Source of the DNA: the human T2T-CHM13v2.0 reference genome, Homo sapiens
DNA: 64,000 nt
Assembly (NCBI RefSeq): GCF_009914755.1
Contig: NC_060926.1
Direction: 5' to 3' (one strand)
Shown piece by piece: positions 22,263 to 38,591 of this stretch (position 1 is the first letter of the stretch; every line of letters starts with the position of its first letter). The translations under genes were made by a program, and so were the position numbers. The notes under the pieces are model-generated. The model saw only the letters and a list, made by a program, of their open reading frames with translations, ran no database searches and was not told the DNA's origin.

Positions 22263-22402
22263 CCATGCCTGATGGAGCTCTGGACACAGCTGTCTGCGCT
22301 GACGAAGTGGGGAGCGAGGAGGACCTGTATGATGACCTGCACAGCTCCAGCCACCACTACAGCCACCCTGGAGGGGGTGGGGAGCAGCTGGCTATCAATG
22401 AG
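22263..22402 (+). CDS. ARHGEF4: ARHGEF4 exon, APC-binding region (MPDGALDTAV...EQLAINE)
   Basis: Polypyrimidine tract + CCAG acceptor, donor GAG|GTAGGG; recognisable Asef ABR peptide. Confidence 0.95.
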
Positions 22403-23395: not shown

Positions 23396-23796
<401 letters not shown>

Positions 23797-23864
23797 CTAC
23801 TTGGGATGGAAGGTGTTCTGAAATGATGCCACCTGAAGCAGAATTCACAAGGAATGGTTGTGCT

Positions 23865-24277
<413 letters not shown>

Positions 24278-26402
24278 TGACCATTTGAGCTGGTTCACAT
24301 GGCTGTGACACCAGATGGTGTGAGGCTGTGCAGGGCTGATGGTAACTGACTGCACACACCCAGCAGGGTGGGCTCTCAGTACATCTCCAACCACGAGGGT
24401 GATCATCCCAACCAAAGCCCTCAGGACTCCGGAGAGGTGGGGGTTCCATGGCTGGCCTTATGGCTGCGTTGATCTTGTGTCTGCATTTCATAGTTGTGTG
24501 TCTCCTACCTGAGGATAAAATTATGGATTGTCACATCTTGCTGCTGGCGAAGAGGTGTTTTTTTTGGGCTCTGAGTTCCTTGACAAGTTGTTCATTCTAA
24601 GATGCTTTGGCCGAGAAAGGCCAAGAGCCAGGACTTCTCTGAAAAAATAACCCAAAAAATGAGGCTCTGTCATCTTTCTGAGGGAAAGGCAGGCAATTTA
24701 GATTTGGATTGTGTAAGCGCCTGTTTGGTCCTGTTTGGTTCAGAGGTCTCTCCTGGCATTAGAGGTTGCTGAGCAGACGGAGTGTTGCTGCTTTGCCTTA
24801 ACGTTTAGGGCGCGTGTCCCCAGGGAGAAGGACACACACATCACAGAGGAGAGCAGGAAGTCAGGCAGAGGGAGCCCGTCTCCTGCGATGCTGCAGGCTG
24901 GTGCTGGGGAGGCTGGCTCCTGTCCCAGATGGCATCCACGCGCCTCATGAAGGCTACCAGTGCTTCCAGATCCTCATGTAGAAAGGCTGTCCTGAGAGAG
25001 GCAGTAAGAAGGGCAGGCCTGGGCTTGGAGGCCTCTCTGGGTCCAGCACAGCGCTGCAGCAAGGCCATCTCTGTGTTTTGTGGGTGGATGTGACACCGGA
25101 GCCCTCACTGTGCCTAGCTTGCACTGCAGACTCAGGAAAGGTGGTGCCTGCCTGTTAGGAGCCGCCAGGAGCATTAAGTGGACTCACTCATCAGAAACTG
25201 AAAAGATAAGAAGTGATTGTCCTGCGACAGGCCAGTTCCCGGGCCTTCAGGGCAGCACTCCCACGGGCTCAGCCAGAAGCTTTGCTGGGGGTTAGCGTGA
25301 CTTTAATATCTAGAGATGAGCAAAGCAACAGGTGTCAGAAAAAAGTCCTTACTAAATAATATTTGGCTTGCCCTAAAATCACACATTCACTTCTATTTTC
25401 TAAGAATATGTAGGGGCTAAATTGTGGCCCTTTCTTATCTTTTTGAGCTCTCAGTTCCTTGACAAGTTGTTCATTCTAAGATGCTTTGGCCAAGGAATAT
25501 CTAAGATGTTTGACATCAACATGAACAAGAAAGGGTCACAATTTAGCCAGATGCCTCCCTCAGAAGGGGAAACCACCTTGCAATTTCCTAAGCAGAACGA
25601 ATGCAAACCCTCTGGCCTGGAGAGCGGCCCACTCGGGGCAGAGCCGCGAGGCAGTTTGCATTCCAGGTACATGAGGAGTGATTTTTATGCTTGCACACAG
25701 ATGTGTGTGCACGTGCTGTACATAAAGGGTGTGGGTGTGTGTTGCATACATGTAACGTGTGTAGTGAGTACTTGCGTCAGGGACGCACCAGGTCCTAGGA
25801 TGCAGCTGTGCAGAAGCCATAGTCCTGCCTGCAGGGAGCTGCCCACAGGCCGTGTCTGTGTGGGCCCCTGCATTGTCCCATATGGGCCTGAGGAACGTGC
25901 AAACAGGCACAATGTCTCGTTCCTTCTGCATTCCTTGAGTTCCCTGTGCCCTGCCCCTCGTGAGTGTCCAGTCCCTGCCAGGCAAATTAAGGAATGCAGA
26001 CGCTGAGTGTTTTCAGTGCCCAGGAGTGTACTCTCTTCTTCCAGCACTGGCCCCTCTAGGGCCTACCCCCAAGGCCATGGCCCAGGCCTGGGCCTGTCTG
26101 CCCAGTTCCTCGCCCTCCCCCTTGACTCTCTTGGGCTGCACTGTGCCCCTGCAGTCAGGCCTGAGGCCACCCTAAGCCCCCTGGACTTTTTCTGAAGCTA
26201 AAGCCAGAAGCGCCTGTCAGTGAGAGTGACCACCCAGCTCCCTCCCCACCACCACCACCGTGTGGGCAGTGCTGCCAGTGCGAGCCATGATGTGACCAGG
26301 GGAGAGGACGGCCTGGCTCCTGCTGGGGAGGTCTAGGGTCTCCCATTGCCCACTGGCACCTGTGAACAGCAGCCTGTCCCCTGCCTCATGTCTTGCAGCA
26401 TC

Positions 26403-26882
26403 CTGTGAGCTGCTTCTGCCCCACCTCATGGAGTGCCTAAGCCCAGCTCGTCTTCCAGCCTGGTGAGGATGAGCACGAGGTGTCTGGCGCACTGATAGGC
26501 ATCAGGCTCCTCTGTGGGGCCGAGGAGGGGGAACAAGAGCCAGGTCCGGCCTGGGGACAGATGTCCCCAGGGCAGGGTCACTGCCCTTGCTCTCCTGGCA
26601 TTCTCCATGAGACAACCCGAGGATGCTATAGGACATGAGGCCAGCTCTTGGTCACCCCTCATGGAGTCACTCTGACTCGCTCCAGGTGTTTTTGTCTTCC
26701 CTGAGTTCCCGTGCCGCTGGACATCCCTCCCCAGTCCTGACCTGGCTCTTATTCCCCCTCCTCAGCCCCAGGGAGGAGCCTGATGGCTGTCAGTGCTGCA
26801 GATACCTTGTACTCATCCTCATTAGGCTGGACAGCAAGCTGGGCTTAGGTGCTCCATGAGGCGGGGCAGGAGCAGCTCACAG
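26403..26882. repeat. Inverted repeat, 164-bp arms (26403-26566 / 26719-26882)
   Basis: Manual ungapped alignment gives about 25 mismatches in 164 nt (~85% identity). Confidence 0.92.
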
Positions 26883-27137
26883 TCCCTTGGGGCCACTGCT
26901 GCCACTTTTGCGCAGGGCTGCAAGGTCACCTGGTGGCCAGCCCCTCCAAAGTGGCTTTCCTCTTCCCTTTGTCCTCCCAAAGCCACAGCACTGGGGGCTC
27001 ACCCCTCATCTGCCCCAGACACCTATGTCTCCCTTCTGCTTGCACCTCAGTCCTGCCACCAGCCTAGTTGGGCCACTCCCCTCCCTGGTGGGAGCTGTCT
27101 GTCCAACCCCTCAAGGGCCTAGGCCTTTGCCTTCAAG

Positions 27138-27468
27138 CTTTCTTTTCTTTTCTTTTCTTTTTTCTTTTTCTTTTTTTTTTTTTTTTGAGACGGGGTCTCA
27201 CTCTGTCACCCAGGCTGGAGTACAGAAGCGTAATCTTGGCTCATTGCAACCTCCACCTCCCAGGCTCAAGTGATCCTCCCACCTCAGTCTTTCTCGTAGC
27301 TGGGACTACAGGCACACGCCGCCACTCCTGGCTAATATGTGTATCTTTTGTAGAGATGGAGTTTCACTATGTTGCCCAGGCTGGTCTCAAACTCCTGAGC
27401 TCAAGCGATCTGCCCGCCTTGGCTTCACAAAGTGCTGGGATTACAGGTTGTGAGCCACCACACCCTGT
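27138..27468 (-). mobile_element. Alu (J-type)
   Basis: Antisense dimer; TSD tgccttcaagctttt. Confidence 0.93.
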
Positions 27469-28149
27469 CTGCCTTCAAGCTTTTCTGTTAGGTTTTTGGT
27501 CATGAAACTCACATAGGAAAGCTGTTACCACTGCCGTTCCTGCCATAAACCCAGCTCTCTGGGATATAGAGGCTGGGGGCCCCTAGGCAGGGAGAAGGAC
27601 CCTGCTCAGTCCTCAGTCAGGGGTGCTTCAGCCACCTTCAGTCCTCCCCAGGCTGCCCTGCTGTGCATGGGGCAGAGGATGTGCGCAGCACTCAGCTGGG
27701 GCTGAAGAACCAACCCCTGCCTGCCCAGGCCTGGCCCAGTGGCCGAGCAGGCTGCTGTAGACCCTCCAGCACTCAGTGCCTTTGCCGGCCATCCAGCTCA
27801 CCGACCCACTGTACCCAGGGCCCAGAGGACATGTACCCTTCTGGGTGGCCAGCTGTTCAGAGGCCACAGGTGCACAATGAAGCATCCACACGTCAGGGGT
27901 TCGAAGCCACACCCCATGAGAGGACACATCACCATCTTACTAGAGGACTGCTGGGATTTGGGGGTACCAGCGAGACTTTAGATGTCTTCTGATCCCCCCA
28001 ATTCTCCTGACAGCTTGGGGGAGCAAACCTGCAGACCAGCGTTTTCTAAAGAACTGGGCATGAGCAGTACACCAGGCGGATGGGCCCAGGCTGAACCTTC
28101 AGATGTGAGGGAGGCACACAGCCTCTCTGGACACATCCCTGACACTTCT

Positions 28150-28325
28150 CTGCACACACACACGGGCACCCACATGTTGTACATAGGCACATGCATGGAA
28201 ACCCCACCCACATACACACAGGTACCCATATGTATATACACACAGAGGTATCCCCTTACACAGAGGTGCCTATGCCCATGCACACACAGGTACCCCTTGT
28301 GTACACACATGCACACACATGTGGC
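28150..28325. repeat. Degenerate CA-rich repeat (cacacaggtaccc-like units)
   Basis: Recurrent acacacaggtaccc / cacagaggt motifs. Confidence 0.6.
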
Positions 28326-28949
28326 ATCCACTCTGCTTTACAGTCAACAGGATGGTGACATTCAGGGTACACTCACCTATCTTTGCAAGGGGTGGCCAAG
28401 AGCTGGCCACACACAGAGAGATCAGAGCATACAAAGTCACTCCCATGGGAACACCCAGTCTGCACACATTCCCTCTGTGCGCCCCTCCCTGCCCTCCAGG
28501 AACTCTTCTTGCTCCAGGATTCAAAGCACTGAGCTTGTTGCCCAGAAATCTCTGCCCATGCCTGAGCGGAGTGTTTAGCCCTCTCCCCTGCAGTCTTCTT
28601 ATCTCTCAGAAGGACACACTGACTGTACCTGGGCTGTCATTCTTAAGGATAGAATGAGAGCTCTTGCACAAGAGCTTTGAAACCTACAGGGTTAAGGTTG
28701 CAGGCTGTGTCGAGTGGAGGCAGAGGAAGCCCTGGACGCCTGGCTTTTCCAAAGGAACACAATGCTGCTCGGACGCTGCGGTCAGTGAAGAGGGGCCCCT
28801 CAGGGTGGATCGCTCCCACCGGAGTTTAAATCCTGCCTCCACCATCCCTGCATTCCTGCGCGATTTTATGACTGAGCAGAATCCCTGACCTTTCAGAGCC
28901 ACGTTTACTCATCTGTGAAGTGGGGGCCTGCGGCCAGTCCTTGTAAGGA

Positions 28950-29950
28950 ATCAGAGTCCCTGGCCCATCCCTCCCCAAAGCGCCGGTGCCAGGCGTTTTG
29001 GCCTCTGTATCTCTGAAACGAGGAGGTCCCGGGGCATCCCCGAGCGCCCCCGTGGCCATCTGTGCCACTGGCCAGCCCAGGGCCAGGACTGCTGTGCCGG
29101 CGTGGAGATTCCCGACCCTTTCCAAGGAGGTGCCAAGGGCGCAGCGCAGCGCACGCCCGAGCCGCCGCGGTCCCTCTGAGCCTCTCCAGCCCGCCGCCGC
29201 CGCCGCCCCCGCCCGCACAGCCGGCTTGGTTGCCAGGGTTGCCAGGGCTTGGGGCCTGGGAGGCGCCGCGCGCACGGCGCCGGCTTCGCGGGAGGAGCCC
29301 CAGGCCCGCGAGCGCAGGCGCCCCGCCTCTCCCCGGGCGCTGCGGGCCACCGGCTCGGCCCTGTGCGGCGGGATCTCGGGGCCGCACGGAGCGGGAGGCC
29401 GGGCGCCATGGCGAGGGCCCCGCAGCCCCGGCGCGGCCCCGCGGCGCCCGGGAACGCCCTGCGCGCCCTGCTGCGCTGCAACCTGCCCCCCGGCGCCCAG
29501 CGCGTGGTGGTCTCCGCCGTGCTGGCGCTCCTGGTTCTCATCAACGTCGTACTGATCTTCCTGCTGGCCTTCCGCTGAGCGGCCGCGCAGGGCGCCGCGC
29601 CGGGGTGAGTGGCGCGGGCGACGGCACTCCAGCCGTTGCCACCCGCGGCCTCCGCACTGGTCGCGGAGGGAAGGCCTCCTTCCACCCCATGTGCTCACTA
29701 CCAGGGCCTGGTCCGGGGGTGTCGCCGAGCGGGTGCCTGAGGGGCGTGGTGGCACGTGTGTCACAGGGTCCTTCTGTCCTCTGTGCCCTGTGGGGAGTGG
29801 GGGCTGCGGGGGCGAGGGGGGAGGCCAAAATGGCGCGTCTCTGCGAGTAACCGAGGATGCGGATTCAGCTGGGGCTCCCCGGCTGCTTGTCTGGAAACGG
29901 AGTGCATGTGACCGCTGGGTGAGCGACCCGCGCTTGCATCTGTGTAGGTT
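28950..29950. promoter_or_regulatory. CpG island / internal promoter and first exon (SMIM39 and short ARHGEF4 isoform)
   Basis: Very high GC and CpG density, (GCC)n run, NRF1-like GCGCAGGCGC at 29312, tandem GGTTGCCAG (RFX-like) at 29228-29245, donor GGG|GTGAGT at 29605. Confidence 0.85.
29408..29578 (+). CDS. SMIM39: Small integral membrane protein 39 (56 aa, MARAPQPRRG…VVVSAVLALLVLINVVLIFLLAFR)
   Basis: Perfect Kozak GCCATGG; basic Pro/Arg-rich N-terminus plus one ~23-aa C-terminal hydrophobic helix; lies in a CpG island. Confidence 0.85.
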   Translation: MARAPQPRRGPAAPGNALRALLRCNLPPGAQRVVVSAVLALLVLINVVLIFLLAFR

Positions 29951-32529
29951 GAGTCAGGTGTGTGGAAGACCCCCGGGCACCGCTGCGCATGTTACCTGCA
30001 GTTGTTTTTCCCGTTTTAGGCCTTAAAATACGTGGTGTCAGTCTTCCCACGGGCAGAGCCCCTCTGCCCCCCTTGCACGTGGGCCCTCTGAAGCCCCCAC
30101 CCCTGCTGCACAAACTGCGGGTGTTCACAGCTGCCCCCACCCTGCACGTCTGGTAGGTGGGCAGGGTGGGGAGGGCAGTGGCGGTCACAGGGAGTAGCTG
30201 GAGGCAGAGCCTGGCAGCGTTGCCCTTCTGGAGGCTGTCAGAACCTCAGAGGCACAGGAGGGGATCCCGCTCCCTGCCCTGGGCTATTTGAGTCTCAAAT
30301 GTGCACCTCCATTGGGACCTTCTCCCACAATAGAACAGCCAGTTTCACAGCCCTGCTGTGTCTCAAGAGTCAGTCTCCGCTCCCTGCAGGCAGAGAGGCA
30401 GCCTGGACTCCTTGCCCCTTGGGCCTGCCTGGCTTGTGTCTTGGCTCAGGTGCAGCTGTGCCTACGAGCACCAAAAAGGGCCTCTGCCCAGAAACGCACC
30501 CAGCGCAATAGCATCGGAGGTGGAGCATGACTCTGATGTCCTACGAAACTGTCTCTGACCTCACAGAGCCACATTTTGTCTTGGTGACAACACAAACAGT
30601 TCACATTTCTCCTAACTCTAAATTAGAGTACCTCCTGAGTGGGAGGCTGTGCAGAAGGGGCTGACATCCTTACATTGGTGGGAGACACAGGAGGAGAGCT
30701 TGCTCACGGCACGTGTCCCTCTGCCAGGGTGCGACAAAGGCAATTAACACCTCCTCCCCTCCTCCCCAAGGTCTTCCAGCTGACTGGGCAGGACAAGTGT
30801 GGGGCTTGTCCCTAATGGTGCCTGGAAGCTGGCCTCTCTGTGAAGCCCTCCTCTTGCCCGACACCTGGTGACCTTCCCTGGCAGCTATGTGGGGGGCCAC
30901 CTATGCCGGACCCAGTCCCACCTGCAGGGACAGGCAGCATAAAGGAAGGGGGAATGGGGGCACCAGGCTTCTGCTCAGGGCTCATTTAAGGGAACCTAGA
31001 GACAGAGGGTGACACCTCACCTGGTTAATATCAGGCAGGAACCTCCTGAGAAGGGAAGCAGTGGGAAAATGAGCCATGTTGAGTGTGTCGGGTCACCTCC
31101 TGACAGCCTGTGTCACAGACCCCAGGTCAGGGCCATGTCACCTACAGCTCACGCTCTCACTGGTGTCCCCAGGCCGCCATGTCTGCTTCCTTCTTTCCCT
31201 GGAGCCTCATTCTTCAGGGCCTCAGCGGGGTGAGCCAGCTCCCCACTGTGGCTGGTGGGCTCCTACCATATGGTCGCCTGAGCCCTCCTGTCTCATCTCA
31301 TCTGAGTGGCAGCAGCAGCTCATGATCTGGAGGCCACCTGCAGAAGGTCTTTGTGGCTGGGAATGAGAGCAGTGGCCCCCTGTGGAAGCCTGCTGCCCCC
31401 AGGAATAACCCAGGGCTCTGTGCCTGGGACCCCGTGGGGGCCTCTGGAGGTCTGCAGCCCCCGCGTGGCTGCCGCGCTGTGAGGGTTCCTGGGCTCACAG
31501 GCTCATGTGTCACTCTGAGGAGAGCGTCCATCAGGACTGGAGCAGGTTTTTCCCCCAGGAAAGAGAAGGTTTGTCCTTCCCTGAACTTGCTTGCTCAGGA
31601 CCCCTGGAGGAAAGCACCATCCCAAGCAGGCTCTGGAGCTTCAGTGCTCCAGTGGCCAGCCCCAGCCCTCACCCTGCCCATTCAGGCAGAGGCCTCTTAG
31701 CTGGAACACAGGACTGGCCCCACTCTTGGTTTCCATGTTGAGGTGAGGATTCACACAGTGCTTAGGGAGTACCCAGTGAAGTGAAAGGAGGGCTCCTGGG
31801 ATGGGAGCTCAGAGGAGGGCCTGTTTGTGACATTCCCATCCTTGACCGCCCCCACAGCTGTGACAGCCAGTGCCAACACCTGGTCCTAGCAGGGAGGGTC
31901 GTGGACCTCACCTCCTGTGCAGCCCCAGCCCACTCCTCCTCTCCTGCCCTAAGGCCCTAGAACTGCTCATCATTCAGGGAGCAGAAACAGATCCCATGTT
32001 AGGAGAAAGCAGGGGTCAGCCCCATGGCGTACAAGGGCTGCCTGGGAGAGGCAGGGGAGCGTCCAGTGTCTTAGTCCACACCACTCTAGAGCAAGGCACT
32101 CTGCTGGTTATTTGAGCAGAGAGAAGCATGTGAAGAATGGTCGGCTAGGTATAATGTGGTTGACTGGGTAACACTGATAAGAGCAGTCCTGAAGTGCCTG
32201 TCACAGAGGTAGCAGCTGCAAAACGTTTCTGCTTCTCCTAGAACTTGGGAAATGAAGAGAAGAGGTTGGACTAACTCAAACTTAGGATCACAGGGCTTGG
32301 GACCTAGAGCTCTAAGAAGGGGCATTGCTCAGCTGGTGCTGGCATCTCTGGGGCTTGGGATGGGAACAGGGGTGCCATGAGGTTGGTTCTGCAAGTGTTG
32401 AAAAACACACAGTAAACAAGCTCCAATCACTCCAATGGCAGGGCACTGTCTACCTGGATGAAGGGGCATTGTGGTTGGTGGCTGACCTTACAGGCAATGC
32501 TCATCCACAAGAAGCCCACAGGAGGGCAC

Positions 32530-32874
32530 CAGCCCCCAGCCCCTCCCTCCTGCAGCCTTGCAGCCCAGCCTCTCCCTCCTGCAGCCTTGCAGCCCTCAGC
32601 CTCTCCTTCCTGCAGCCTTGCAGCGCCCAGCCCCTCCCTCCTGCAGCCTTGCAGCCCCCAGGCCCTCCCTCCTGCAGCCTTGCAGCCCAGCCTCTCCCTC
32701 CTGCAGCCTTGCAGCCCTCAGCCTCTCCCTCCTGCAGCCTTGCAGCGCCCAGCCTCTCCCTCCTGCAGCCTTGCAGCCCAGCCTCTCCCTCCTGCAGCCT
32801 TGCAGCCCTCAGCCCCTCCCTCCTGCAGCCTTGCAGTGCCCAGCCCCTCCCTCCTGCAGCCTTGCAGCCCCCAG
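32530..32874. repeat. Minisatellite/VNTR, 11 units of 29 or 31 bp (core CCTCCTGCAGCCTTGCAG)
   Basis: CTGCAGCCTTGCAG starts at 32550, 32579, 32610, 32641, 32672, 32701, 32732, 32763, 32792, 32823 and 32854. Confidence 0.95.
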
Positions 32875-33167
32875 GAATTCTGGATTGGGAATGCTAACAG
32901 GGAGCAGTTGGCAGTCCCAGTGACAGGATCAGATTCTGTGGTCAGTTCACTTCCGGCTCCATCACTGAGCCTTGATAATCTAGACATGCCCAGAACACAG
33001 CCCCTGCCCCAGGAAAGCCCTGCTCCTGTCAGAGGCAGCCTTGTCAGCTCCTCTGTAAAGAAGTCAGGATCCCCTCTTCCCAGGGCTGCTGAGGGAGTGG
33101 AGACAGAGAGCAGGGAGGCCCAGGCAGCCTCCCCCACTGACCCGCCTGCCCGTGGCTCTCTCGGCAG

Positions 33168-33347
33168 CTCATCAGCGATGGCAGTGTGGTCTGCGCTGAA
33201 GCACTCTGGGACCATGTCACCATGGACGACCAGGAGCTGGGCTTCAAAGCTGGGGACGTCATCGAAGTGATGGATGCCACCAACAGAGAGTGGTGGTGGG
33301 GCCGGGTCGCCGATGGCGAGGGCTGGTTTCCAGCCAGCTTCGTTCGG
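33168..33347 (+). CDS. ARHGEF4: ARHGEF4 exon, SH3 domain ([16 protein letters not shown]...WWWG...GWFPASFVR)
   Basis: SH3 motifs ALWD, WW and GWFP; branch-like CACTGAC, CAG acceptor, donor CGG|GTATGG; 180 nt. Confidence 0.97.
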
Positions 33348-34330
33348 GTATGGTTCCAAGCCCCAGCTTCTCCCAAGTTGGGCCCATAAAAAGCTACCTG
33401 GTTCTGCAGAGAAATCCAAGCCCAAAACAGCTCTGGCATCCTAGGTGCAGAGCACTGGGTGGTGGGTGTCGGGGCGCAGTGTCACAGCCTTCCTCCTCCT
33501 GGAGAGCCACTACTCCTGCTCCCATTCCTCTTCTGGTGAGCCCTCGGGGGCCAGAGAGGAGAGCAGTCGAGAAATGAGTGTGTGCAGACACTAGGCACCC
33601 CTCTGCGATACCCCCGCAACTCCAGGCGCTAGACATTTCCCAAGCCCTGAAGAGCACTGATAGGGGACTGCTCACCTCACACACAGCCCCGGGAGTGGGA
33701 ACCATGACTTACACCTGAAGAAGTTGAGGCACGGTCAAGTTATTAGCCCTGGAGATAGCAGAGAGGGGACCTGGATTCCATCTAAGGGGGTCTCCAGTCT
33801 TCAAGGAAGGAATCCAGGTGCAGTCTCCAAAAGGCCTGGCTCAGGGCGTCCAAGCTGAGGGCCGTCCGGCGGGGAGGTCCCAGGCCCTGGTGTTCAGATG
33901 CTCCTCCTGCCCCAGATCCCCTGGGAAACTGTCCACTCCGCACCCTAAGCCTTTCCCCAAGTTGCATGTTAGCCAGCGGGCGCGCCACCCATCCCCCTGC
34001 TTCTGCCCGCTGGGGCTGGCAGGAGCAGGCACTGGTTCAGGAACTGCAGGAAGCGCTCCAGCCTCTGTGCCGGGCACAAGCAGGGTCTAGGAAGGAGGCC
34101 AAATCGGTGTTCGGATCACACTGACGGCGGCTGCGGGCGTCGGAGTCGTCATTCCTCGGTCCAGGACTTGCGTGGGTGGCGTGGTCGGGGGAGCTGGCCG
34201 GCCAGTCCTCAGCCCTGCGCCCCGTGCACCCTGCGGGGCCTCCGAGGCCCGGTTCCCGCCGCTGCGGCGCAGGGCGCGGGGCGTTGCTCCGAGGGATGCG
34301 GGGCACTGACCGGCCACGCATGGCCTGCAG

Positions 34331-34507
34331 CTGAGGGTGAATCAGGACGAGCCCGCGGATGACGACGCCCCTCTGGCCGGGAACAGCGGAGCGGAGGACG
34401 GCGGGGCGGAGGCGCAGAGCAGCAAGGACCAGATGCGGACCAACGTCATCAACGAGATCCTCAGCACTGAGCGGGACTACATCAAGCACCTGCGCGACAT
34501 CTGCGAG
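34331..34507 (+). CDS. ARHGEF4: ARHGEF4 exon, SH3-DH linker and start of DH domain (…[25 protein letters not shown])
   Basis: DH CR1 motif EILSTERDY; CAG acceptor, donor GAG|GTGAGG; 177 nt. Confidence 0.97.
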
Positions 34508-34575
34508 GTGAGGCCCGGCCGGCGGGCGGTGACTGGGGACCCGGTCGGGGGAGGCCTAACCACGTCCGCCCGCAG

Positions 34576-34755
34576 GGCTACGTCCGGCAGTGCCGCAAGC
34601 GCGCAGACATGTTCAGCGAGGAGCAGCTGCGTACCATCTTCGGGAACATCGAGGACATCTACCGCTGCCAGAAGGCCTTCGTGAAGGCCCTGGAGCAGAG
34701 GTTCAACCGCGAGCGCCCACACCTGAGCGAGCTGGGTGCCTGCTTCCTGGAGCAT
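34576..34755 (+). CDS. ARHGEF4: ARHGEF4 exon, DH domain ([29 protein letters not shown]…FLEH)
   Basis: [10 protein letters not shown] motif; CAG acceptor, donor CAT|GTGAGC; 180 nt. Confidence 0.97.
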
Positions 34756-35545
34756 GTGAGCGCGCGGCCCCCGGCCCCTACCTGGGCGCTGCGTTCACAG
34801 AGGCTGCCGCGGGCGCCAGCGCGGACAGCGGGTGGCTGGTCCCAAAACCTTCCACAACGCCTGGGCCCCAGCTCCAGCCCTCTATCTGCCCCGCTGCCCG
34901 CACCCTTCAGGACAGTTTTAGGATGGTCTCTGCTTCTGTGTGGCGAAACCAAGTCAGGGAACGCTCCTGGGAGCAGAGGGCTGGGGCGTCCCCCAGGAAG
35001 GACTTGCTTTGACAGATAGGAGGGCAGAGGCCTGCCGAGCGCCGCAGGGGCTGTTCAGAGTGAGCTCTGGGGTTTCTCACACAGGGAGAATTTACAGCCT
35101 GCTTAGGCGGCAGATGCCGGCTGGCATTTACCAAGGTTCACTGGGCCGCTCTAAGTGGACACCTCCTAGCCTCACCTGGTAGAGAAGGGCCTTGTTTTGG
35201 CCCTCTTGGGCAGTCGAGCGAGGGTGAGCAGAGGATGCCTGTCCCACCCAACCCCCCTAACACCGCCGCTTTTGGCATTGTTATCCCGTCCTTGTTATCA
35301 TGGATTTCACCCAGAAGGCTAGCGTGCAGCCGGGACACCTGCTCATATTCTCACCATTCCCACCCCTGTGTGTGACTCCATGTAGCTTATGCCCCAGGGA
35401 AATAGGTACACACAGCCTGGGTCTCCCCTAGCCCCCAGCCCAGCTCCTGAAGGAAATGTAGAGGCTCTTGCCCTTCCCAGACATGCAGCTGGATTGCCTG
35501 TGGGAGCAGCAGAGAGCTCTGCTAACCTCCAGCTGTGCCCCTTAG

Positions 35546-35778
35546 CAAGCCGACTTCCAGATCTACTCGGAGTACTGCAATAACCACCCCAACGCCTGCG
35601 TGGAGCTCTCCCGGCTCACCAAGCTCAGCAAGTACGTGTACTTCTTCGAGGCCTGCCGGCTGCTGCAGAAGATGATTGACATCTCCCTGGATGGCTTCCT
35701 GCTGACTCCGGTGCAGAAGATCTGCAAGTACCCTCTGCAGCTGGCCGAGCTGCTCAAATACACGCACCCCCAGCACAG
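35546..35778 (+). CDS. ARHGEF4: ARHGEF4 exon, DH domain ([15 protein letters not shown]…[22 protein letters not shown])
   Basis: DH CR3 motif [12 protein letters not shown]; TAG acceptor, donor CAG|GTAGGA; 233 nt. Confidence 0.97.
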
Positions 35779-36130
35779 GTAGGAGGGCACTGAGGCAGGG
35801 AGGCAGCCCACGCCTCTGCATGCCTCCAGTCAGCCAGTTTGAGCATTAGCAGTGTGCTGGGCACTGCTGCAGCCCTGGGGCAACACACAGAAAACTAGCC
35901 CTGTCCTGATGAGCTCCTTGCAATGGGGGAAGAGGATGCCAACAGGATATTAAGCTCTGCTCTGTGCTTGCCATTTATGGAGAAGAGAGGGGCTGTGCAT
36001 CTGATAGTGAGGATGTGGTCAAAGGGCACAGCCCCAGAGGAAAGCAGCTCCACACGTGGGGGCTGCAGGGGATCCTCACCCTTTCTCTGTCTCCAGCCTG
36101 CAGCAGCCTTCCATCTCTGTTCTGCCCCAG

Positions 36131-36260
36131 GGACTTCAAGGATGTTGAAGCCGCCTTGCATGCCATGAAGAACGTGGCCCAGCTCATCAACGAGCGGAAG
36201 CGGAGACTTGAGAACATCGACAAGATTGCTCAGTGGCAGAGCTCCATAGAGGACTGGGAG
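36131..36260 (+). CDS. ARHGEF4: ARHGEF4 exon, DH C-terminal helix (DFKDVEAAL…[25 protein letters not shown])
   Basis: CAG acceptor, donor GAG|GTGAGG; phase matches neighbouring exons; 130 nt. Confidence 0.97.
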
Positions 36261-36914
36261 GTGAGGGCCTGGGGGCACAGAAAATTCCAGGAGGTCTTGG
36301 CCCCTTGCTTTAAAATCATGCTTGCCCCTGAAAAATCTAGAAGGGAGCTGAAGCAGGGAGCTGCGCTCCTGGGAGCTAGCAACAGATGCTCATGGTGTGA
36401 AAGCCTGTCCCCAGCGTGGGCTCTGGACCTTTGCTGCTGCCTACCGTAGCAGGCTTTGGCACCTGGTGGCCTCTTTTCTATGTGAAACTCCTCCCATGAG
36501 CAGCCAGCCAGCCCAGGAGAAGCCCTCAACAGAGGAAGTGTGTTCCTCAGCTGTGTTCTGTTCCTCTGCCTTCAGGGGACAGGCCAGATCCCTGTTTTAG
36601 TTCACTTCTGGGACTCCTAACAGAAGGCTGCAGGCCCAACACAGCATGACCAAAAATGCATCGCCACCCATCAGAGCCTCCTGGTTCTGTTTGTCTGACT
36701 TGCACATTTCCCTTTGCATCTGCCAATCTTGCCTTAGAACTAATGACGATGTTCCTGTCCCCCTCCACCCACCCCCACTTGCATCTGCCAATCTGCCACC
36801 TCCTGATCTGTTCCCGAAGGCTCCCTACCCACATGGGTGCTGCCACCACCATGCACCAGCTGTCAGCGAGAGAAATGGCCTGGAAATCAATCAGTATCAG
36901 CCACAGAACATTAT

Positions 36915-36980
36915 GAAAATACAGATTCCAGGGCCCCACCCTAGACACAGTGAATCAGAAGCCCTGGGGCGGGGCTGAGG
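36915..36980. mobile_element. MER5A fragment
   Basis: aaaatacagattccagggccccaccctagac…tgaatcagaa. Confidence 0.6.
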
Positions 36981-37283
36981 AATAGGGGCAGTCAGCTGTG
37001 AGGCGGGGCTGAGCAATAGGGGCAGTTGTGAGGCCCAGCCCTGGCTCAGGGCCCTCCAGAGTCACTCATCCCAAACAGGCCACCGCCAACCACTCCCAGC
37101 TGGGGTTTGCATTTTCAAGGTAGAATGAGACCAGGGCAGGGCTTAGTCTAAAAGTATGAAGCCCAAGGGTGGATGATGGACCTTCAGGTACTCAGTGCAC
37201 TTAGCTGGGAAGAGGGCCTCCTTAGAGATCTCAAAGGTTGGCCTCAGAGGTGAATCCCAGACAGGCCTAATTCTTCTCTAGGG

Positions 37284-37600
37284 CAGCACTGTCCAATCAA
37301 ACTAGTATGTGAGCCACATATGGAATCGTATGCTACGCAGTAGCCATCTTTAAAAAGGGAAAAAAACAAGTGAATTTAATTTTAATAATGTTTCATTTAA
37401 CTCCAAAATAGCATTTCAACTTGTGATCAACTAAAACATCATTAATGAAATATTTTACATTATTTCATATGAAGTCTTCAAAATCAATATGTATCTTACA
37501 CTGACATCACATCTAATTAATATGGATTAGCCACACTTCCAGTGCCCAACAGCCACCAGAGGCCACTGGTGACAGGGGGCTCCTATTTTGCAAGGACAGC
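37284..37600. mobile_element. MER33/MER3-like DNA transposon
   Basis: cagcactgtccaat…atgtgagccacatatg…attagccacacttccagtgcccaacagccac…ggacagc. Confidence 0.75.
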
Positions 37601-37772
37601 CAACTCACAGGCCAGACGTGCCACCTCTTCCTCCCCCTCCCACCATGGCCTGGCCAGGTGGGCGCTGCAGGCAAGGCCAGGGGGAGGTGCCCCACCCACC
37701 CATGATGGGGGCAGGAAGTGGAGCCCACGGTTGGGTATGCGAGGCTCATGGTTCTCCTTGGGATCTTCCCAG

Positions 37773-37904
37773 GGAGAAGATCTCTTGGTCAGGAGCTCAG
37801 AACTCATCTACTCGGGGGAGCTGACTCGAGTTACACAGCCTCAAGCCAAAAGCCAGCAGCGAATGTTCTTTCTCTTTGACCACCAGCTCATCTACTGTAA
37901 GAAG
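37773..37904 (+). CDS. ARHGEF4: ARHGEF4 exon, PH domain start ([17 protein letters not shown]…[13 protein letters not shown])
   Basis: PH motif [11 protein letters not shown]; CAG acceptor, donor AAG|GTACCA; 132 nt. Confidence 0.96.
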
Positions 37905-38591
37905 GTACCAGAGCTGCTCTGCCCTGCTGCCCCAAGTTGAGCAAGTGGAGGGAGGGGAGCTGAGGGCTGGGAGCAGCTGCCCAGAAGACAGGTGCCAGCC
38001 AGACCATACCCGGGGAGCCTGGCCAGACCCTTGGGAGCCTGGTGGCCCAGGAGCAGCAGGCGGCTTTCACAGTCTGACCAGGCCGGGTGCTGTTGAGAGC
38101 ATGATCTTTCCTGACCTGGCCGCTGCTTGCTCCTCAAGCTACCTCTTCTCTCCCTGCAAACCTCCACATCCCCTCTCTCCAACCCCGGAGTCCCCTGCTC
38201 TAGCCACCTCCCAGCTTCCTCTACGCTGCCGGCTTCTGCTCCTCTTTCAAAACATGGCCCAGTGGCCTCATGTCCATGAAGCCCTCCTTGTCCACGGGTG
38301 ATCTTTCCTACGTGTGGTGTGAGCCACTGTCTTAGTCTCCCCACCTCAAAGACAGGGCCAACCCCGGGCTAGTCAGTACCTGCAAAATAAAGGAGCAAGG
38401 CCTCTCCACTCATGGCTCAGCATGTCTGTGGGCTGCAGAAGGCATGCTCTGCCCTCAGGATCTCACTGTCTGCTGGGGAGGTGGAGGCATCACCAGCAGC
38501 CCCTCCTATGGCTGGGGAGAGGAGGTGGGAGCAGCCAGGAAATGGTCAGGGGAGCGGTTCAGCAGCCAGGGCTGAGGCCAGCATCTGGCAG

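What the first reader, a model, noticed from the sequence alone, without database searches (positions are those of the whole stretch)
29200..33347. Candidate bicistronic system: SMIM39 TM microprotein in an alternative first exon spliced to an autoinhibition-deficient Asef
Seen: the CpG-island exon holds a 56-codon ORF with perfect Kozak (GCCATGG, 29408-29578) and one C-terminal TM helix. A consensus donor GGG|GTGAGT sits 26 nt after its stop, and the next + strand coding acceptor is the SH3 exon (33168). In that spliced mRNA the first in-frame ARHGEF4 AUG is ACCATGG at 33222 (MDDQELGF…), 80 nt after the SMIM39 stop. It gives a 483-aa protein lacking the APC-binding region and the first SH3 strand. 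Established: Asef is autoinhibited by ABR-SH3 packing on DH-PH, APC relieves this, and N-terminal truncation activates it. Inference: one mRNA may encode both a membrane microprotein and an APC-independent Cdc42/Rac GEF, with SMIM39 acting as a translational gate and/or membrane partner. I recall a similar TM-encoding upstream ORF in the paralog ARHGEF9 (collybistin) but cannot verify it here; if true, this is an ancient family-wide cassette.
Basis: partly seen in the sequence, partly recalled or inferred. Interest (0 to 1): 0.85.

Follow-up and report, generated by a model that had tools for sequence, protein, structure and literature searches.

The report
SMIM39 microprotein exon inside ARHGEF4
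The small open reading frame is the already annotated, vertebrate-conserved membrane microprotein gene SMIM39, carried on the same transcripts as the 3' exons of ARHGEF4; a related microprotein frame sits in front of the sister gene ARHGEF9, so the pairing is ancient, but nothing shows that a truncated, always-active Asef is made.

Summary
The object is not new. The 56-codon frame is SMIM39. Mackowiak 2015 listed it as a conserved small ORF. Mudge 2019 described it as lying in an alternative first exon of ARHGEF4, 'cotranscribed with ARHGEF4', with brain peptides.

The truncated-Asef part is unproven. Two out-of-frame AUGs (33178, 33214) lie before AUG 33222. Its ACCATGG context is ordinary SH3 coding sequence shared by all three human paralogs. 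A mouse transcript of the same build is annotated as coding a shorter ORF.

A 59-codon homologous frame (hhalign 97.7%, E 1.5e-12; 0 of 2000 shuffles) lies 29.8 kb upstream of the ARHGEF9 SH3 exon, on the same strand, in its 5' leader. SPATA13 has no copy in the 100 kb searched. In ARHGEF9 the reading I infer (start codon recalled) keeps the whole SH3 domain, so loss of autoinhibition would not be the conserved feature.

I found no paper linking the two microproteins. Verdict: known gene, partly supported interpretation, moderate interest.

The parts
29101..30000 (.). CpG island and alternative promoter inside the ARHGEF4 intron between the APC-binding-region exon and the SH3 exon
   Evidence: GC 0.74-0.79 and CpG observed/expected 0.83-0.95, against 0.22-0.23 in the flanks. 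CAGE support in brain is as stated by Mudge 2019, Suppl. Data S2.
29316..29604 (+). Alternative first exon of ARHGEF4 transcripts (RefSeq bounds). By my conversion, Ensembl models start at about 29288 and 29244.
   Evidence: Hub gene table. Mackowiak 2015 supplement gives first exons of 317 and 361 nt, both ending at the same donor. The 95-nt leader folds at -63.6 kcal/mol, z -1.65.
29408..29578 (+). SMIM39 coding sequence: 56 codons plus TGA, the first AUG of the transcript, in context GCCATGG
   Evidence: The peptide is identical to the SMIM39 sequence printed in Mudge 2019 Suppl. S2 and Mackowiak 2015. Orthologs.
29504..29572 (+). Codons 33-55: the single C-terminal transmembrane helix, with an invariant mid-helix Asn46 and only one residue after it (tail-anchor-like layout)
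   Evidence: Kyte-Doolittle 19-residue means of 2.75-3.15. Second codon position is 75% T while third-position GC is 0.92. Invariant columns.
29605..29612 (+). Splice donor GTGAGTGG, 26 nt after the SMIM39 stop
   Evidence: the junction is used in the Ensembl models.
32530..32874 (.). 31-bp minisatellite (11.3 copies) in the intron, about 300 nt before the SH3 exon. Context only, not part of the mechanism.
33168..33347 (+). SH3 exon of ARHGEF4 (phase 0, 60 codons). Its first five residues are the end of the published APC-binding segment.
   Evidence: 100% identical to PDB chains 3nmz_D, 2pz1_A and 2dx1_A. Pfam SH3_1 covers residues 12-56, profile positions 2-48 of 48. ABR numbering 176-194 comes from PMC8100458.
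33178..33270 (+). Out-of-frame 30-codon ORF (AUG in GCGATGG; a second AUG at 33214). It overlaps AUG 33222, and its TGA overlaps the in-frame AUG at 33270 (TGATG).
   Evidence: ATGs at the same exon positions 11 and 47 occur in the SPATA13-type exon but not in ARHGEF9.
33222..33224 (+). First AUG in the ARHGEF4 frame of this transcript. It opens a 483-aa frame (residues 208-690 of the 690-aa Asef by arithmetic) that lacks the APC-binding region and the first 8-9 profile positions of the SH3 domain.
   Evidence: Pfam match of the truncated exon starts at profile position 10 of 48. The same ACCATGG occurs in all three paralog exons.
22263..22402 (+). Upstream exon encoding most of the APC-binding region. 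It is skipped by transcripts that start at 29316.
   Evidence: Hub table. Its translation ends in the published ABR residues.

Best explanation
The feature is SMIM39, a vertebrate-conserved 56-residue membrane microprotein. It has a basic N-terminal part and one transmembrane helix at the very C-terminus. It is encoded in a CpG-island-driven alternative first exon that lies in the ARHGEF4 intron between the APC-binding-region exon and the SH3 exon.

Shown here or in print:
- The ORF, its hydrophobic helix and its amino-acid-level conservation.
- Splicing of this exon to the SH3 and later ARHGEF4 exons, with no polyadenylation hexamer of its own downstream.
- Peptides reported from frontal cortex (the authors call the statistical confidence not high).
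- A homologous 59-residue microprotein frame in the 5' leader exon of the paralog ARHGEF9. The pairing of this microprotein with an SH3-DH-PH exchange factor therefore predates the ARHGEF4/ARHGEF9 split. Both are reported in zebrafish, so it is older than the teleost-tetrapod divergence.

Inferred:
- SMIM39 has the cap-proximal AUG in a strong context and is 57 codons long. It is probably the main translation product of this transcript class.
- Ribosomes can then reach the exchange-factor frame only by leaky scanning or reinitiation, past two out-of-frame AUGs. In human the 483-aa Asef lacking the APC-binding region would be made at low or conditional levels, if at all. SMIM39 would thus act as a uORF-type gate as well as a protein.
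- With its helix at the extreme C-terminus, the peptide would be inserted post-translationally, N-terminus in the cytosol.
For: [quoted passage not shown]
- Mackowiak 2015 tables: human PhyloCSF 311.8 with the reading frame kept in 15 species, on a transcript with exons 317, 180, 177, 180, 47. Mouse type 'utr5' on a 10-exon Arhgef4 transcript.
- Orthologs: 28 of 29 candidates at E <= 0.01, and all 12 named rows are called SMIM39 (or SMIM39-like). There are 14 invariant columns, concentrated in the juxtamembrane and helix part.
- Hydrophobicity beyond composition: 0 of 4345 control segments reach the observed value.
- No AWTAAA on the + strand from 23737 to 38386. The next is intronic at 38386, then 41527, beside the annotated ARHGEF4 3' end.
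- Paralog: a 59-aa ORF at C23:62179762-62179938 (-). It lies 29.8 kb upstream of, and on the same strand as, an exon 100% identical to solved ARHGEF9 chains. Profile-profile probability is 97.7%, E 1.5e-12, and 0 of 2000 shuffles reach the real score. The two families split at 100/100 support in a 43-sequence tree. Mouse Arhgef9 'utr5', 59 aa, 45 species including coelacanth; zebrafish arhgef9b 'utr5'.
- A 1781-aa non-mammalian ARHGEF4 gene model (SH3 54 of 60 identical to human ARHGEF4) reads the SMIM39-type ORF between the ABR and SH3 exons. That is the same intron.
- Intervening AUGs at 33178 and 33214.
Against: - No translation data were available here for either cistron. That SMIM39 is the dominant product rests on scanning rules, not measurement.
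- Mouse ENSMUST00000047664 is annotated as protein coding with a shorter ORF and changes in usage in adipose tissue. Annotators therefore accept a downstream product. I recall, unchecked, a mouse Arhgef4 database entry of about 484 aa, which is what the exon sizes give from the equivalent Met.
- The stop lies upstream of nine exon junctions. That predicts nonsense-mediated decay of a purely SMIM39-translating mRNA, which sits oddly with a conserved, expressed transcript unless downstream translation or some escape occurs.
- The MS support was rated by its authors as not of high statistical confidence. 442 characters of that table cell were cut in the stored copy.
- The species of the non-mammalian SMIM39-type proteins are unnamed in the databases. 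The zebrafish statement rests on the two papers.
Confidence: 0.6

Rival explanations
1. The mRNA is truly bicistronic. SMIM39 and a 483-aa Asef starting at Met-208 are both made in functional amounts. Lacking the APC-binding region and the first SH3 strand, the short Asef is an APC-independent, constitutively active Cdc42/Rac exchange factor. SMIM39 gates its translation and/or anchors it to membranes.
For: - The junction and frame are as stated.
- The 483-aa frame loses SH3 profile positions 1-9 of 48.
- Reviews state that Asef is autoinhibited by SH3 binding to DH-PH and released by APC (passages read).
- The mouse counterpart transcript is annotated as coding a shorter ORF.
- The 80-nt spacing could allow delayed reinitiation past the AUG at 33178, which lies 36 nt after the stop (inference).
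- The linkage is conserved in two paralogs.
Against: - The first AUG is in a strong context, and a 57-codon first ORF makes reinitiation inefficient (established scanning rules).
- Two out-of-frame AUGs precede 33222, one in GCGATGG.
- ACCATGG at 33222 is conserved SH3 coding sequence in ARHGEF9 and SPATA13 as well.
- On my inferred ARHGEF9 reading the downstream frame starts with three codons at the end of the microprotein exon and keeps the full SH3 (that this is the collybistin start is recalled).
- A pangolin ARHGEF4 model begins with Met directly joined to the full SH3 exon.
- A fragment with two thirds of an SH3 domain may be unstable rather than active (inference).
- No 483-aa protein was seen among the 120 listed of 1604 hits. 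The ranking favoured full-exon matches, so this is not evidence either way.
Confidence: 0.2
2. The linkage is incidental. The intronic promoter makes a SMIM39 mRNA that lacks its own terminator and so runs into ARHGEF4's splice sites and poly(A) site. The downstream exons are a long 3' UTR, the RNA is kept low by nonsense-mediated decay, and there is no functional tie between the microprotein and the exchange factor.
For: - RefSeq models SMIM39 as its coding sequence alone (hub table).
- GENCODE had classed the human transcript as non-coding within ARHGEF4 before adding the CDS.
- No poly(A) hexamer follows the exon.
- The stop lies upstream of nine junctions (hub exon table; inference on decay).
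Against: - Co-transcription is reported in human, mouse and zebrafish.
- A homologous ORF keeps the same position relative to the SH3 exon in ARHGEF9, there in the 5' leader of a coding mRNA. Two such arrangements surviving since before the teleost-tetrapod split are hard to ascribe to accident.
Confidence: 0.15
3. It is a regulatory uORF only. Translation of the frame matters, but the peptide has no function of its own.
For: Its position as the first AUG in a GC-rich, strongly folded leader.
Against: - Conservation is at the amino-acid level: PhyloCSF 311.8 in human and 474.8 for the mouse Arhgef9 ORF.
- The Cys, Gln-x-Val-Val-Val and mid-helix Asn positions are invariant across both families, which end at the same aligned position.
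- The helix is kept while third-position GC differs (0.96 against 0.59).
- Peptides are reported by MS.
Confidence: 0.04
4. It is a chance open frame in a stop-poor CpG island.
For: ORFs of this length arise in 95% of shuffles, and a 196-aa antisense ORF overlaps it.
Against: Hydrophobic helix: 0 of 4345 controls reach the observed value. Orthologs and a paralog family exist. Published PhyloCSF and MS support it.
Confidence: 0.01

Closest known systems
SMIM39 (HGNC/GENCODE ENSG00000284479; RefSeq NM_001414894.1), as described in Mudge et al. 2019, Genome Res, Suppl. Data S2
   Same: It is this gene. The peptide and position are identical: an alternative first exon of ARHGEF4, flagged under the column 'Bicistronic?' as cotranscribed with ARHGEF4.
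   Different: Nothing differs. The paper gives no function and, in the files I could search, does not mention the ARHGEF9 counterpart (0 occurrences of ARHGEF9 or of its motif; one supplementary file could not be searched).
Conserved 5'-UTR small ORF of ARHGEF9/Arhgef9/arhgef9b (Mackowiak et al. 2015 supplementary tables). NCBI names its orthologs 'uncharacterized LOC128031833 homolog'.
   Same: It is a homologous single-helix microprotein (hhalign 97.7%, 17 of 43 identical residues between the human pair). It lies on the same strand upstream of the homologous SH3 exon, on the same mRNA as the exchange factor.
   Different: - It sits in exon 2 of the mRNA rather than in an internal alternative first exon.
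- It is followed after 172 nt by Met-Thr-Leu codons and a donor in phase with the SH3 exon, so on that reading the downstream protein keeps the whole SH3.
- Its AUG context is weak (T at -3).
- Its N-terminal part is acidic (net -3) rather than basic (+6), and its GC3 is 0.59 against 0.96.
- Its homology-graph neighbour in the 2015 table is only its human ortholog, not SMIM39.
uORF-encoded conserved microproteins on bicistronic mammalian mRNAs (for example SLC35A4-MP, PMC12396333 abstract; the TP53BP1 smORF with promoter switching and reinitiation, PMC10193022 abstract; others recalled, such as MIEF1-MP and ASDURF)
   Same: A conserved protein-coding ORF lies upstream of a larger CDS on one mRNA, and access to the second frame depends on leaky scanning or reinitiation.
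   Different: Here the upstream ORF is supplied by an alternative promoter inside the host gene. The pair is duplicated along with the host gene family. Translation of the second frame is not shown.
Engineered N-terminally truncated, constitutively active Asef (Kawasaki 2000; Mitin 2007; Murayama 2007, as cited in PMC8100458; only the review's passages were read)
   Same: The putative 483-aa product lacks the APC-binding region, as do the activated constructs.
   Different: It would retain about two thirds of the SH3 domain (profile positions 10-48) and is not known to exist as a protein. Its activity is untested.
Tail-anchored regulatory micropeptides of the phospholamban/sarcolipin/DWORF type (recalled; DWORF is also listed in Mudge 2019 Suppl. 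S2)
   Same: A very short protein with a single helix at the extreme C-terminus and a conserved polar Asn inside the helix. The resemblance is one of layout only.
   Different: There is no sequence relationship. Pfam gave only one sub-threshold, unrelated match, and the language-model look-alikes all scored below 0.85. No partner is known.

Membership tests
SMIM39 orthologous group | Peptide identical or near-identical to the curated SMIM39 sequence | tested here: met
   The translation equals the sequence printed in Mudge 2019 S2 and Mackowiak 2015. 12 of 12 named database hits are SMIM39 or SMIM39-like.
SMIM39 orthologous group | Location in the ARHGEF4 intron before the SH3 exon | tested here: met
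   Human: hub table. Non-mammal: gene model P0038 places the ORF between the ABR and SH3 exons.
Bicistronic mRNA with a protein-coding uORF | Both frames lie on one mature transcript, the small one upstream | tested here: met
   Exon structures of ENST00000439368 and ENSMUST00000047664 (the latter typed 'utr5'). Spliced-frame arithmetic. This rests on annotation, not on reads examined here.
Bicistronic mRNA with a protein-coding uORF | Both frames are translated | not testable with these tools
   Only a literature statement of MS peptides for SMIM39. There are no data for initiation at 33222.
Tail-anchored membrane protein (layout) | A single hydrophobic helix within about 30 residues of the C-terminus and no signal peptide | tested here: met
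   The helix spans residues 33-55 of 56. The signal_peptide column is False in Mackowiak 2015. Actual insertion and topology are untested.
Paralogous microprotein family shared with the ARHGEF9 leader ORF | Significant collinear sequence similarity beyond helix composition | tested here: met
   hhalign 97.7%, E 1.5e-12 over 43 columns. The SMIM39 profile scores the human chrX ORF at 38.7 bits, against a maximum of 17.4 in 2000 half-wise shuffles. The whole-library profile search recovered six chrX-family proteins at E 1.7e-7 to 2.7e-4.
Paralogous microprotein family shared with the ARHGEF9 leader ORF | Equivalent position relative to the homologous SH3 exon in every family member (ARHGEF4, ARHGEF9, SPATA13) | tested here: not met
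   Met for ARHGEF4 and ARHGEF9. SPATA13 shows no hit better than E 0.23 (9 bits) in 101,680 bases, including the 1.9-kb homologous intron, while positive controls scored 34-129 bits. The human genome search found no third copy.
Autoinhibition-deficient Asef | Absence of the APC-binding region and of an intact SH3 domain | tested here: met
   This holds for the conceptual 483-aa frame only. It starts at residue 19 of the SH3 exon, and the Pfam SH3_1 match begins at profile position 10 of 48.
Autoinhibition-deficient Asef | The protein exists and has raised exchange activity | not testable with these tools
   No proteomic or enzymatic data. The mouse transcript is merely annotated as coding.
Phospholamban/sarcolipin-type regulins | Sequence match to the family profiles | tested here: not met
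   Pfam scan at E <= 0.1 returned only Ig_PDGFR_d4 at 15.6 bits, below its cut-off of 27.

The most novel reading that the evidence does not exclude
The transmembrane microprotein and the SH3-DH-PH exchange factor form an ancient two-cistron unit, retained since before the teleost-tetrapod split in both ARHGEF4 (SMIM39) and ARHGEF9 (the LOC128031833-type ORF). It is retained because the microprotein is a working membrane partner of the factor encoded behind it. It might recruit the factor to a membrane or modulate its SH3-based autoinhibition, much as the membrane protein neuroligin-2 does for collybistin. On this reading it is not merely a translational gate. This would add an unrecognised component to Asef signalling and to gephyrin/GABA-A receptor clustering, and make ARHGEF9 5'-leader variants candidates in X-linked epilepsy and intellectual disability.
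Probability: 0.15. Interest if true: 0.75.

Novelty: already known. Interest (0 to 1): 0.38.

Why it matters
SMIM39 itself and its co-transcription with ARHGEF4 are in the annotation and in print, so the finding as written adds little.

What this check adds is that SMIM39 and the conserved leader ORF of ARHGEF9 are homologs sitting in equivalent places before the SH3 exons of two paralogous, SH3-autoinhibited exchange factors. My searches found no paper on this: 'LOC128031833' gave 0 papers, 'ARHGEF9' with 'PhyloCSF' gave 0, and none of the 4 papers holding 'SMIM39' deals with it in the two I read or in the title and abstract start of the other two. The 2015 homology graph does not link the two ORFs.

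A linkage kept for over 400 million years in two genes argues that the microprotein and the factor are coupled, in translation or in function. Both host genes matter in disease: Asef in colorectal cancer cell migration, and collybistin in inhibitory synapse formation and X-linked epilepsy and intellectual disability. The ARHGEF9 ORF is identical in human and mouse. The idea can be tested directly by mutating the start codons in cis.

Tried and rejected
- Complex prediction of SMIM39 (alignment A1) with the SH3-DH-PH module of a pangolin ARHGEF4 model (P0166, residues 1-425). The job never ran. The queue was full at all 14 hand-ins. No result exists either way.
- Profile search of the human genome was not accepted by the tool. 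I used single proteins instead.
- ESM Atlas look-alikes of SMIM39: the best score was 0.84, generic small bacterial and archaeal membrane proteins, below the tool's own lead threshold. Rejected.
- Pfam on SMIM39: one sub-threshold hit to the helix region of PDGFR Ig domain 4. Rejected as composition.
- Paper search 'ARHGEF4' + 'uORF': its single hit concerns ARHGEF40.
- A six-term microprotein/ARHGEF9 search was too loose. None of the 20 listed papers holds ARHGEF9.
- Search for a paper describing the ARHGEF9 N-terminal exons gave 2 papers. Only the general collybistin passages of one were used. A follow-up look-up failed on term syntax and was not repeated. That the Met-Thr-Leu codons at the end of the ARHGEF9 microprotein exon are the collybistin start therefore rests on the sequence, the 'utr5' class and my memory.
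- Looking for an annotated 483-aa human isoform. The 120 listed of 1604 hits were ranked by full coverage of the SH3 exon and hold none. This is uninformative.
- The long Ala/Pro-rich N-termini of two 624-aa models (P0089, P0091) gave only low-complexity matches to the window (best E 5.9e-9, 36% identity, low-complexity). They are not encoded by the SMIM39 exon.
- A class-I SH3-ligand-like RxxPxxP motif in the human SMIM39 N-terminus. By eye on alignment A1 it is absent from several mammals and from all three non-mammalian rows. I dropped it as an argument for SH3 binding.
- Leader RNA structure: -63.6 kcal/mol but z only -1.65. This is explained by composition.

Full report
**1. The observation**

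A 56-codon frame runs from 29408 to 29578 on the + strand, in the context GGCGCCATGG. A GGG|GTGAGT donor follows 26 nt after its stop. The next annotated coding acceptor is ...ctcggcag|CTC at 33168.

I joined the RefSeq alternative first exon (29316-29604) to the exons from 33168 onward. In that RNA the first ATG in the ARHGEF4 frame is ACCATGG at 33222, 80 nt after the SMIM39 stop, and it opens a 483-aa frame. The exon lies in a CpG island at 29101-30000, with GC 0.74-0.79 and CpG observed/expected 0.83-0.95.

Frame length alone means nothing here. 95% of 500 dinucleotide shuffles of the island give an ORF at least as long, and a 196-aa antisense ORF overlaps it. The hydrophobic stretch does mean something. 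Residues 33-55 reach a 19-residue hydropathy mean of 3.15, which 0 of 4345 open segments from shuffles attain. Its second codon positions are 75% T inside DNA whose third positions are 92% G+C.

- Two out-of-frame ATGs lie between the SMIM39 stop and 33222: 33178 in GCGATGG, opening 30 codons that overlap 33222, and 33214.
- The first exon read in the ARHGEF4 frame is open throughout but has no ATG.
- There is no AATAAA or ATTAAA on the + strand from 23737 to 38386.

**2. What it is**

The peptide is letter for letter the SMIM39 sequence in Supplemental Data S2 of Mudge et al. 2019 (PMC6886504; I read passages of the main text and the table row). [quoted passage not shown] Under a column headed 'Bicistronic?' they entered 'cotranscribed with ARHGEF4'.

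They report CAGE and RNA-seq support in brain and peptide support in frontal cortex. They add that statistical confidence was not high. The rest of that cell, 442 characters, is cut in the stored copy.

The same ORF is in the supplementary tables of Mackowiak et al. 2015 (PMC4568590; I read table rows and the column key). The human entry sits on ENST00000439368, whose exons are 317, 180, 177, 180 and 47 nt. Converted to window coordinates, these reproduce the 29604 donor and, to within one base between assemblies, the 33168 and 34331 acceptors. That entry has PhyloCSF 311.8 and a reading frame kept in 15 species.

A 2020 review table even lists SMIM39 as an alias of ARHGEF4. The object and its bicistronic appearance are therefore already known.

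**3. Conservation**

A word-indexed search found 28 proteins at E <= 0.01 among 29 candidates. All 12 rows that carry a name are SMIM39 or SMIM39-like.

In a 16-sequence alignment the N-terminal third varies. A Cys, a Gln-x-Val-Val motif and a mid-helix Asn are invariant, much of the helix is invariant or nearly so, and all 16 aligned sequences end at the same aligned position.

A profile search of 1.84 billion representatives gave 23 hits at E <= 0.001. One is a 1781-aa non-mammalian gene model. Its SH3 exon is 54 of 60 identical to human ARHGEF4, against 49 for the SPATA13-type exon and 43 for ARHGEF9. It reads the SMIM39-type ORF in between the APC-binding-region exon and the SH3 exon. This is probably a mis-annotation, but it shows that the ORF occupies the same intron far outside mammals.

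**4. The downstream frame**

The SH3 exon is 100% identical to the solved Asef chains 3nmz_D, 2pz1_A and 2dx1_A. A review gives the APC-binding segment as residues 176-194, ending in the first five residues of this exon (PMC8100458, passages read). Met at 33222 is therefore residue 208 of the 690-aa protein, and 690 - 207 = 483 agrees.

Pfam SH3_1 covers profile positions 2-48 in the whole exon but only 10-48 from that Met. That Asef is held inactive by its SH3 domain and released by APC is stated in the passages I read.

Three points weaken the step from frame to protein:
- SMIM39 has the first AUG in a strong context and is 57 codons long. Ribosomes that resume scanning meet AUG 33178 after 36 nt and 33214 after 72 nt, before 33222.
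- The 'perfect Kozak' is not a signal. The same ACCATGG, coding Thr-Met-Asp or Thr-Met-Ala, sits at exon position 55 of the SH3 exons of ARHGEF9 and SPATA13.
- No translation data exist in what I could reach.

On the other side, the mouse transcript of the same build is typed 'utr5' for this ORF, which means it is annotated as coding. That transcript is ENSMUST00000047664, with exons 298, 180, 180, 180, 233, 130, 132, 244, 78 and 1632 nt. [quoted passage not shown] I recall, but did not check, a mouse database entry of about 484 aa, which the exon sizes would give from the equivalent Met.

**5. The ARHGEF9 counterpart**

Six weaker hits of the profile search form a second family. One of them maps in the human genome to C23:62179762-62179938 on the minus strand (E 1.3e-26). 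There a 59-codon ATG-to-stop frame lies.

The Asef SH3 exon finds its homologs at C13:23493294-23493473 (82% identity) and C23:62149802-62149981, minus strand (68%). The latter is 100% identical to solved ARHGEF9 chains. The ORF thus lies 29.8 kb upstream of the ARHGEF9 SH3 exon, on the same strand.

The two families are homologous and not merely both hydrophobic:
- hhalign gives 97.7% probability and E 1.5e-12 over 43 columns.
- The SMIM39 profile scores the human chrX ORF at 38.7 bits, while 2000 versions with the N-terminal and helix halves shuffled separately reach 17.4 at most.
- The human pair shares 17 of 43 residues and ends at the same aligned position.
- A tree of 43 sequences separates the families at 100/100 support. 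One read-through model, P0032, was left out, and only the last 43 residues of each sequence were used.

Mackowiak's tables list this ORF as a 5'-UTR small ORF of mouse Arhgef9. It is 59 aa and identical to the human ORF, with PhyloCSF 474.8 and conservation in 45 species including coelacanth, frog, lizard and chicken. It lies in a 382-nt second exon that is followed by a 180-nt exon. A 31-aa version is listed in the zebrafish arhgef9b 5' UTR. NCBI names the orthologs 'uncharacterized LOC128031833 homolog', and calls one snake copy SMIM39 by mistake.

In the human exon the ORF has a weak AUG context (T at -3). It follows an acceptor-like tract. After 172 nt come the codons Met-Thr-Leu directly before a GTATAT donor, in phase with the SH3 exon. 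I recall these three residues as the start of the canonical collybistin protein, but I could not verify it here.

On that reading the ARHGEF9 downstream product keeps its complete SH3 domain. Loss of autoinhibition would then not be the conserved property of the arrangement.

**6. SPATA13**

The exon homologous to the APC-binding-region exon lies at C13:23491223-23491351, so the homologous intron is only 1.9 kb. I scanned 101,680 bases in six frames (3694 segments, positive controls included) with three profiles. The best hit was E 0.23 at 9 bits, against 34-129 bits for the two positive controls. A genome-wide search with SMIM39 at E <= 10 found only itself and the chrX ORF. The cassette is therefore in two of the three paralogs in human.

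**7. How it most likely works**

Shown:
- A conserved single-helix microprotein gene in an intronic alternative first exon.
- Splicing to the SH3-DH-PH exons.
- No terminator signal of its own.
- A homologous arrangement in ARHGEF9.

Inferred:
- SMIM39 is the main product of this transcript class and limits ribosome access to the exchange-factor frame.
- The peptide is inserted post-translationally with its basic N-terminus (net +6) in the cytosol.
- The linkage is under selection. It is reported in human, mouse and zebrafish for ARHGEF4 and from mammals to teleosts for ARHGEF9.

Whether the coupling is only translational or also physical is open. The one complex prediction I prepared never left the queue.

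An unresolved tension remains. A stop codon upstream of nine exon junctions predicts nonsense-mediated decay, unless some downstream translation or escape occurs.

**8. Novelty**

The gene and its co-transcription with ARHGEF4 are known. I found nothing in print that links the two microproteins or notes that they accompany paralogous exchange factors:
- 'LOC128031833' gave 0 papers.
- 'ARHGEF9' with 'PhyloCSF' gave 0 papers.
- 'SMIM39' gave 4 papers, none on this in the passages of the two I read or in the title and abstract start of the other two.
- Mudge's searchable supplements hold no ARHGEF9 entry or motif (one file was not searchable).
- The 2015 homology graph lists only the cross-species ortholog for each ORF.

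About 1.7 million PubMed Central articles and subscription journals are outside these searches.

**9. Verdict**

The object is already known.

Noticed in passing
window 32530-32874: A 31-bp minisatellite of 11.3 copies (89% matches) lies about 300 nt upstream of the SH3 exon acceptor. Each unit contains an acceptor-like CCTCCTGCAG.
   Followed up: partly
window 33268-33272: The TGA of the out-of-frame 30-codon ORF overlaps an ARHGEF4-frame ATG by one base (TGATG). That ATG, at 33270, opens a 467-aa frame. The layout resembles termination-reinitiation sites, but it may be coincidence.
   Followed up: no
window 25308-37374 (both strands); + strand 23743-38385: There are no AATAAA or ATTAAA hexamers at all in this 12-kb stretch, although the window as a whole has 144 against about 60 expected from shuffles.
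   Followed up: partly
window 28951-29541 (-): A 196-aa antisense ORF lies across the CpG island and overlaps SMIM39. ORFs of this kind are expected in such stop-poor DNA (shuffles). No homology search was made.
   Followed up: partly
window 34001-34850: A second CpG-rich block (GC >= 0.6, observed/expected >= 0.75) covers the exons 34331-34507 and 34576-34755.
   Followed up: no
window 29408-29578 compared with non-mammalian homologs (tree): The mammalian SMIM39 clade sits on a long stem (1.06 changes per column). The human ORF has third-position GC of 0.96. By eye, helix residues Ile/Met/Phe of non-mammals are Val/Leu/Ala in mammals, which looks like a GC-driven shift in amino-acid composition.
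   Followed up: partly
SH3 exons: window 33222; L003 (C13:23493348); L004 (C23:62149927, - strand): The in-frame Met within the SH3 domain, with its ACCATGG context, is kept in all three human paralogs. The out-of-frame ATGs at exon positions 11 and 47 are shared by ARHGEF4 and the SPATA13-type exon only.
   Followed up: partly
database proteins P0038, P0054, P0041, P0025: Likely annotation or assembly artefacts. P0038 is an ARHGEF4 model that reads the microprotein ORF as an internal coding exon. P0054 is a snake protein named SMIM39 that belongs to the ARHGEF9-linked family. P0041 is a 222-aa protein whose membrane-protein-like N-terminal part is joined to the first 30-odd residues of human-type SMIM39. 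P0025 is a 78-aa protein that joins the SMIM39 helix to the translation of the opposite strand.
   Followed up: no
L001 1677-1689 (- strand; C23 near 62179938): A 7-codon ORF (ATG in CATGG) starts 11 nt before the ARHGEF9-linked microprotein ATG and overlaps it. A 13-codon ORF starts directly at the microprotein stop (TGAATGG).
   Followed up: no
L005 (C22:40441900-40442055, +): A fourth SH3-like match to the Asef SH3 exon (46% identity, E 5e-10) lies on another chromosome. It was not identified.
   Followed up: no
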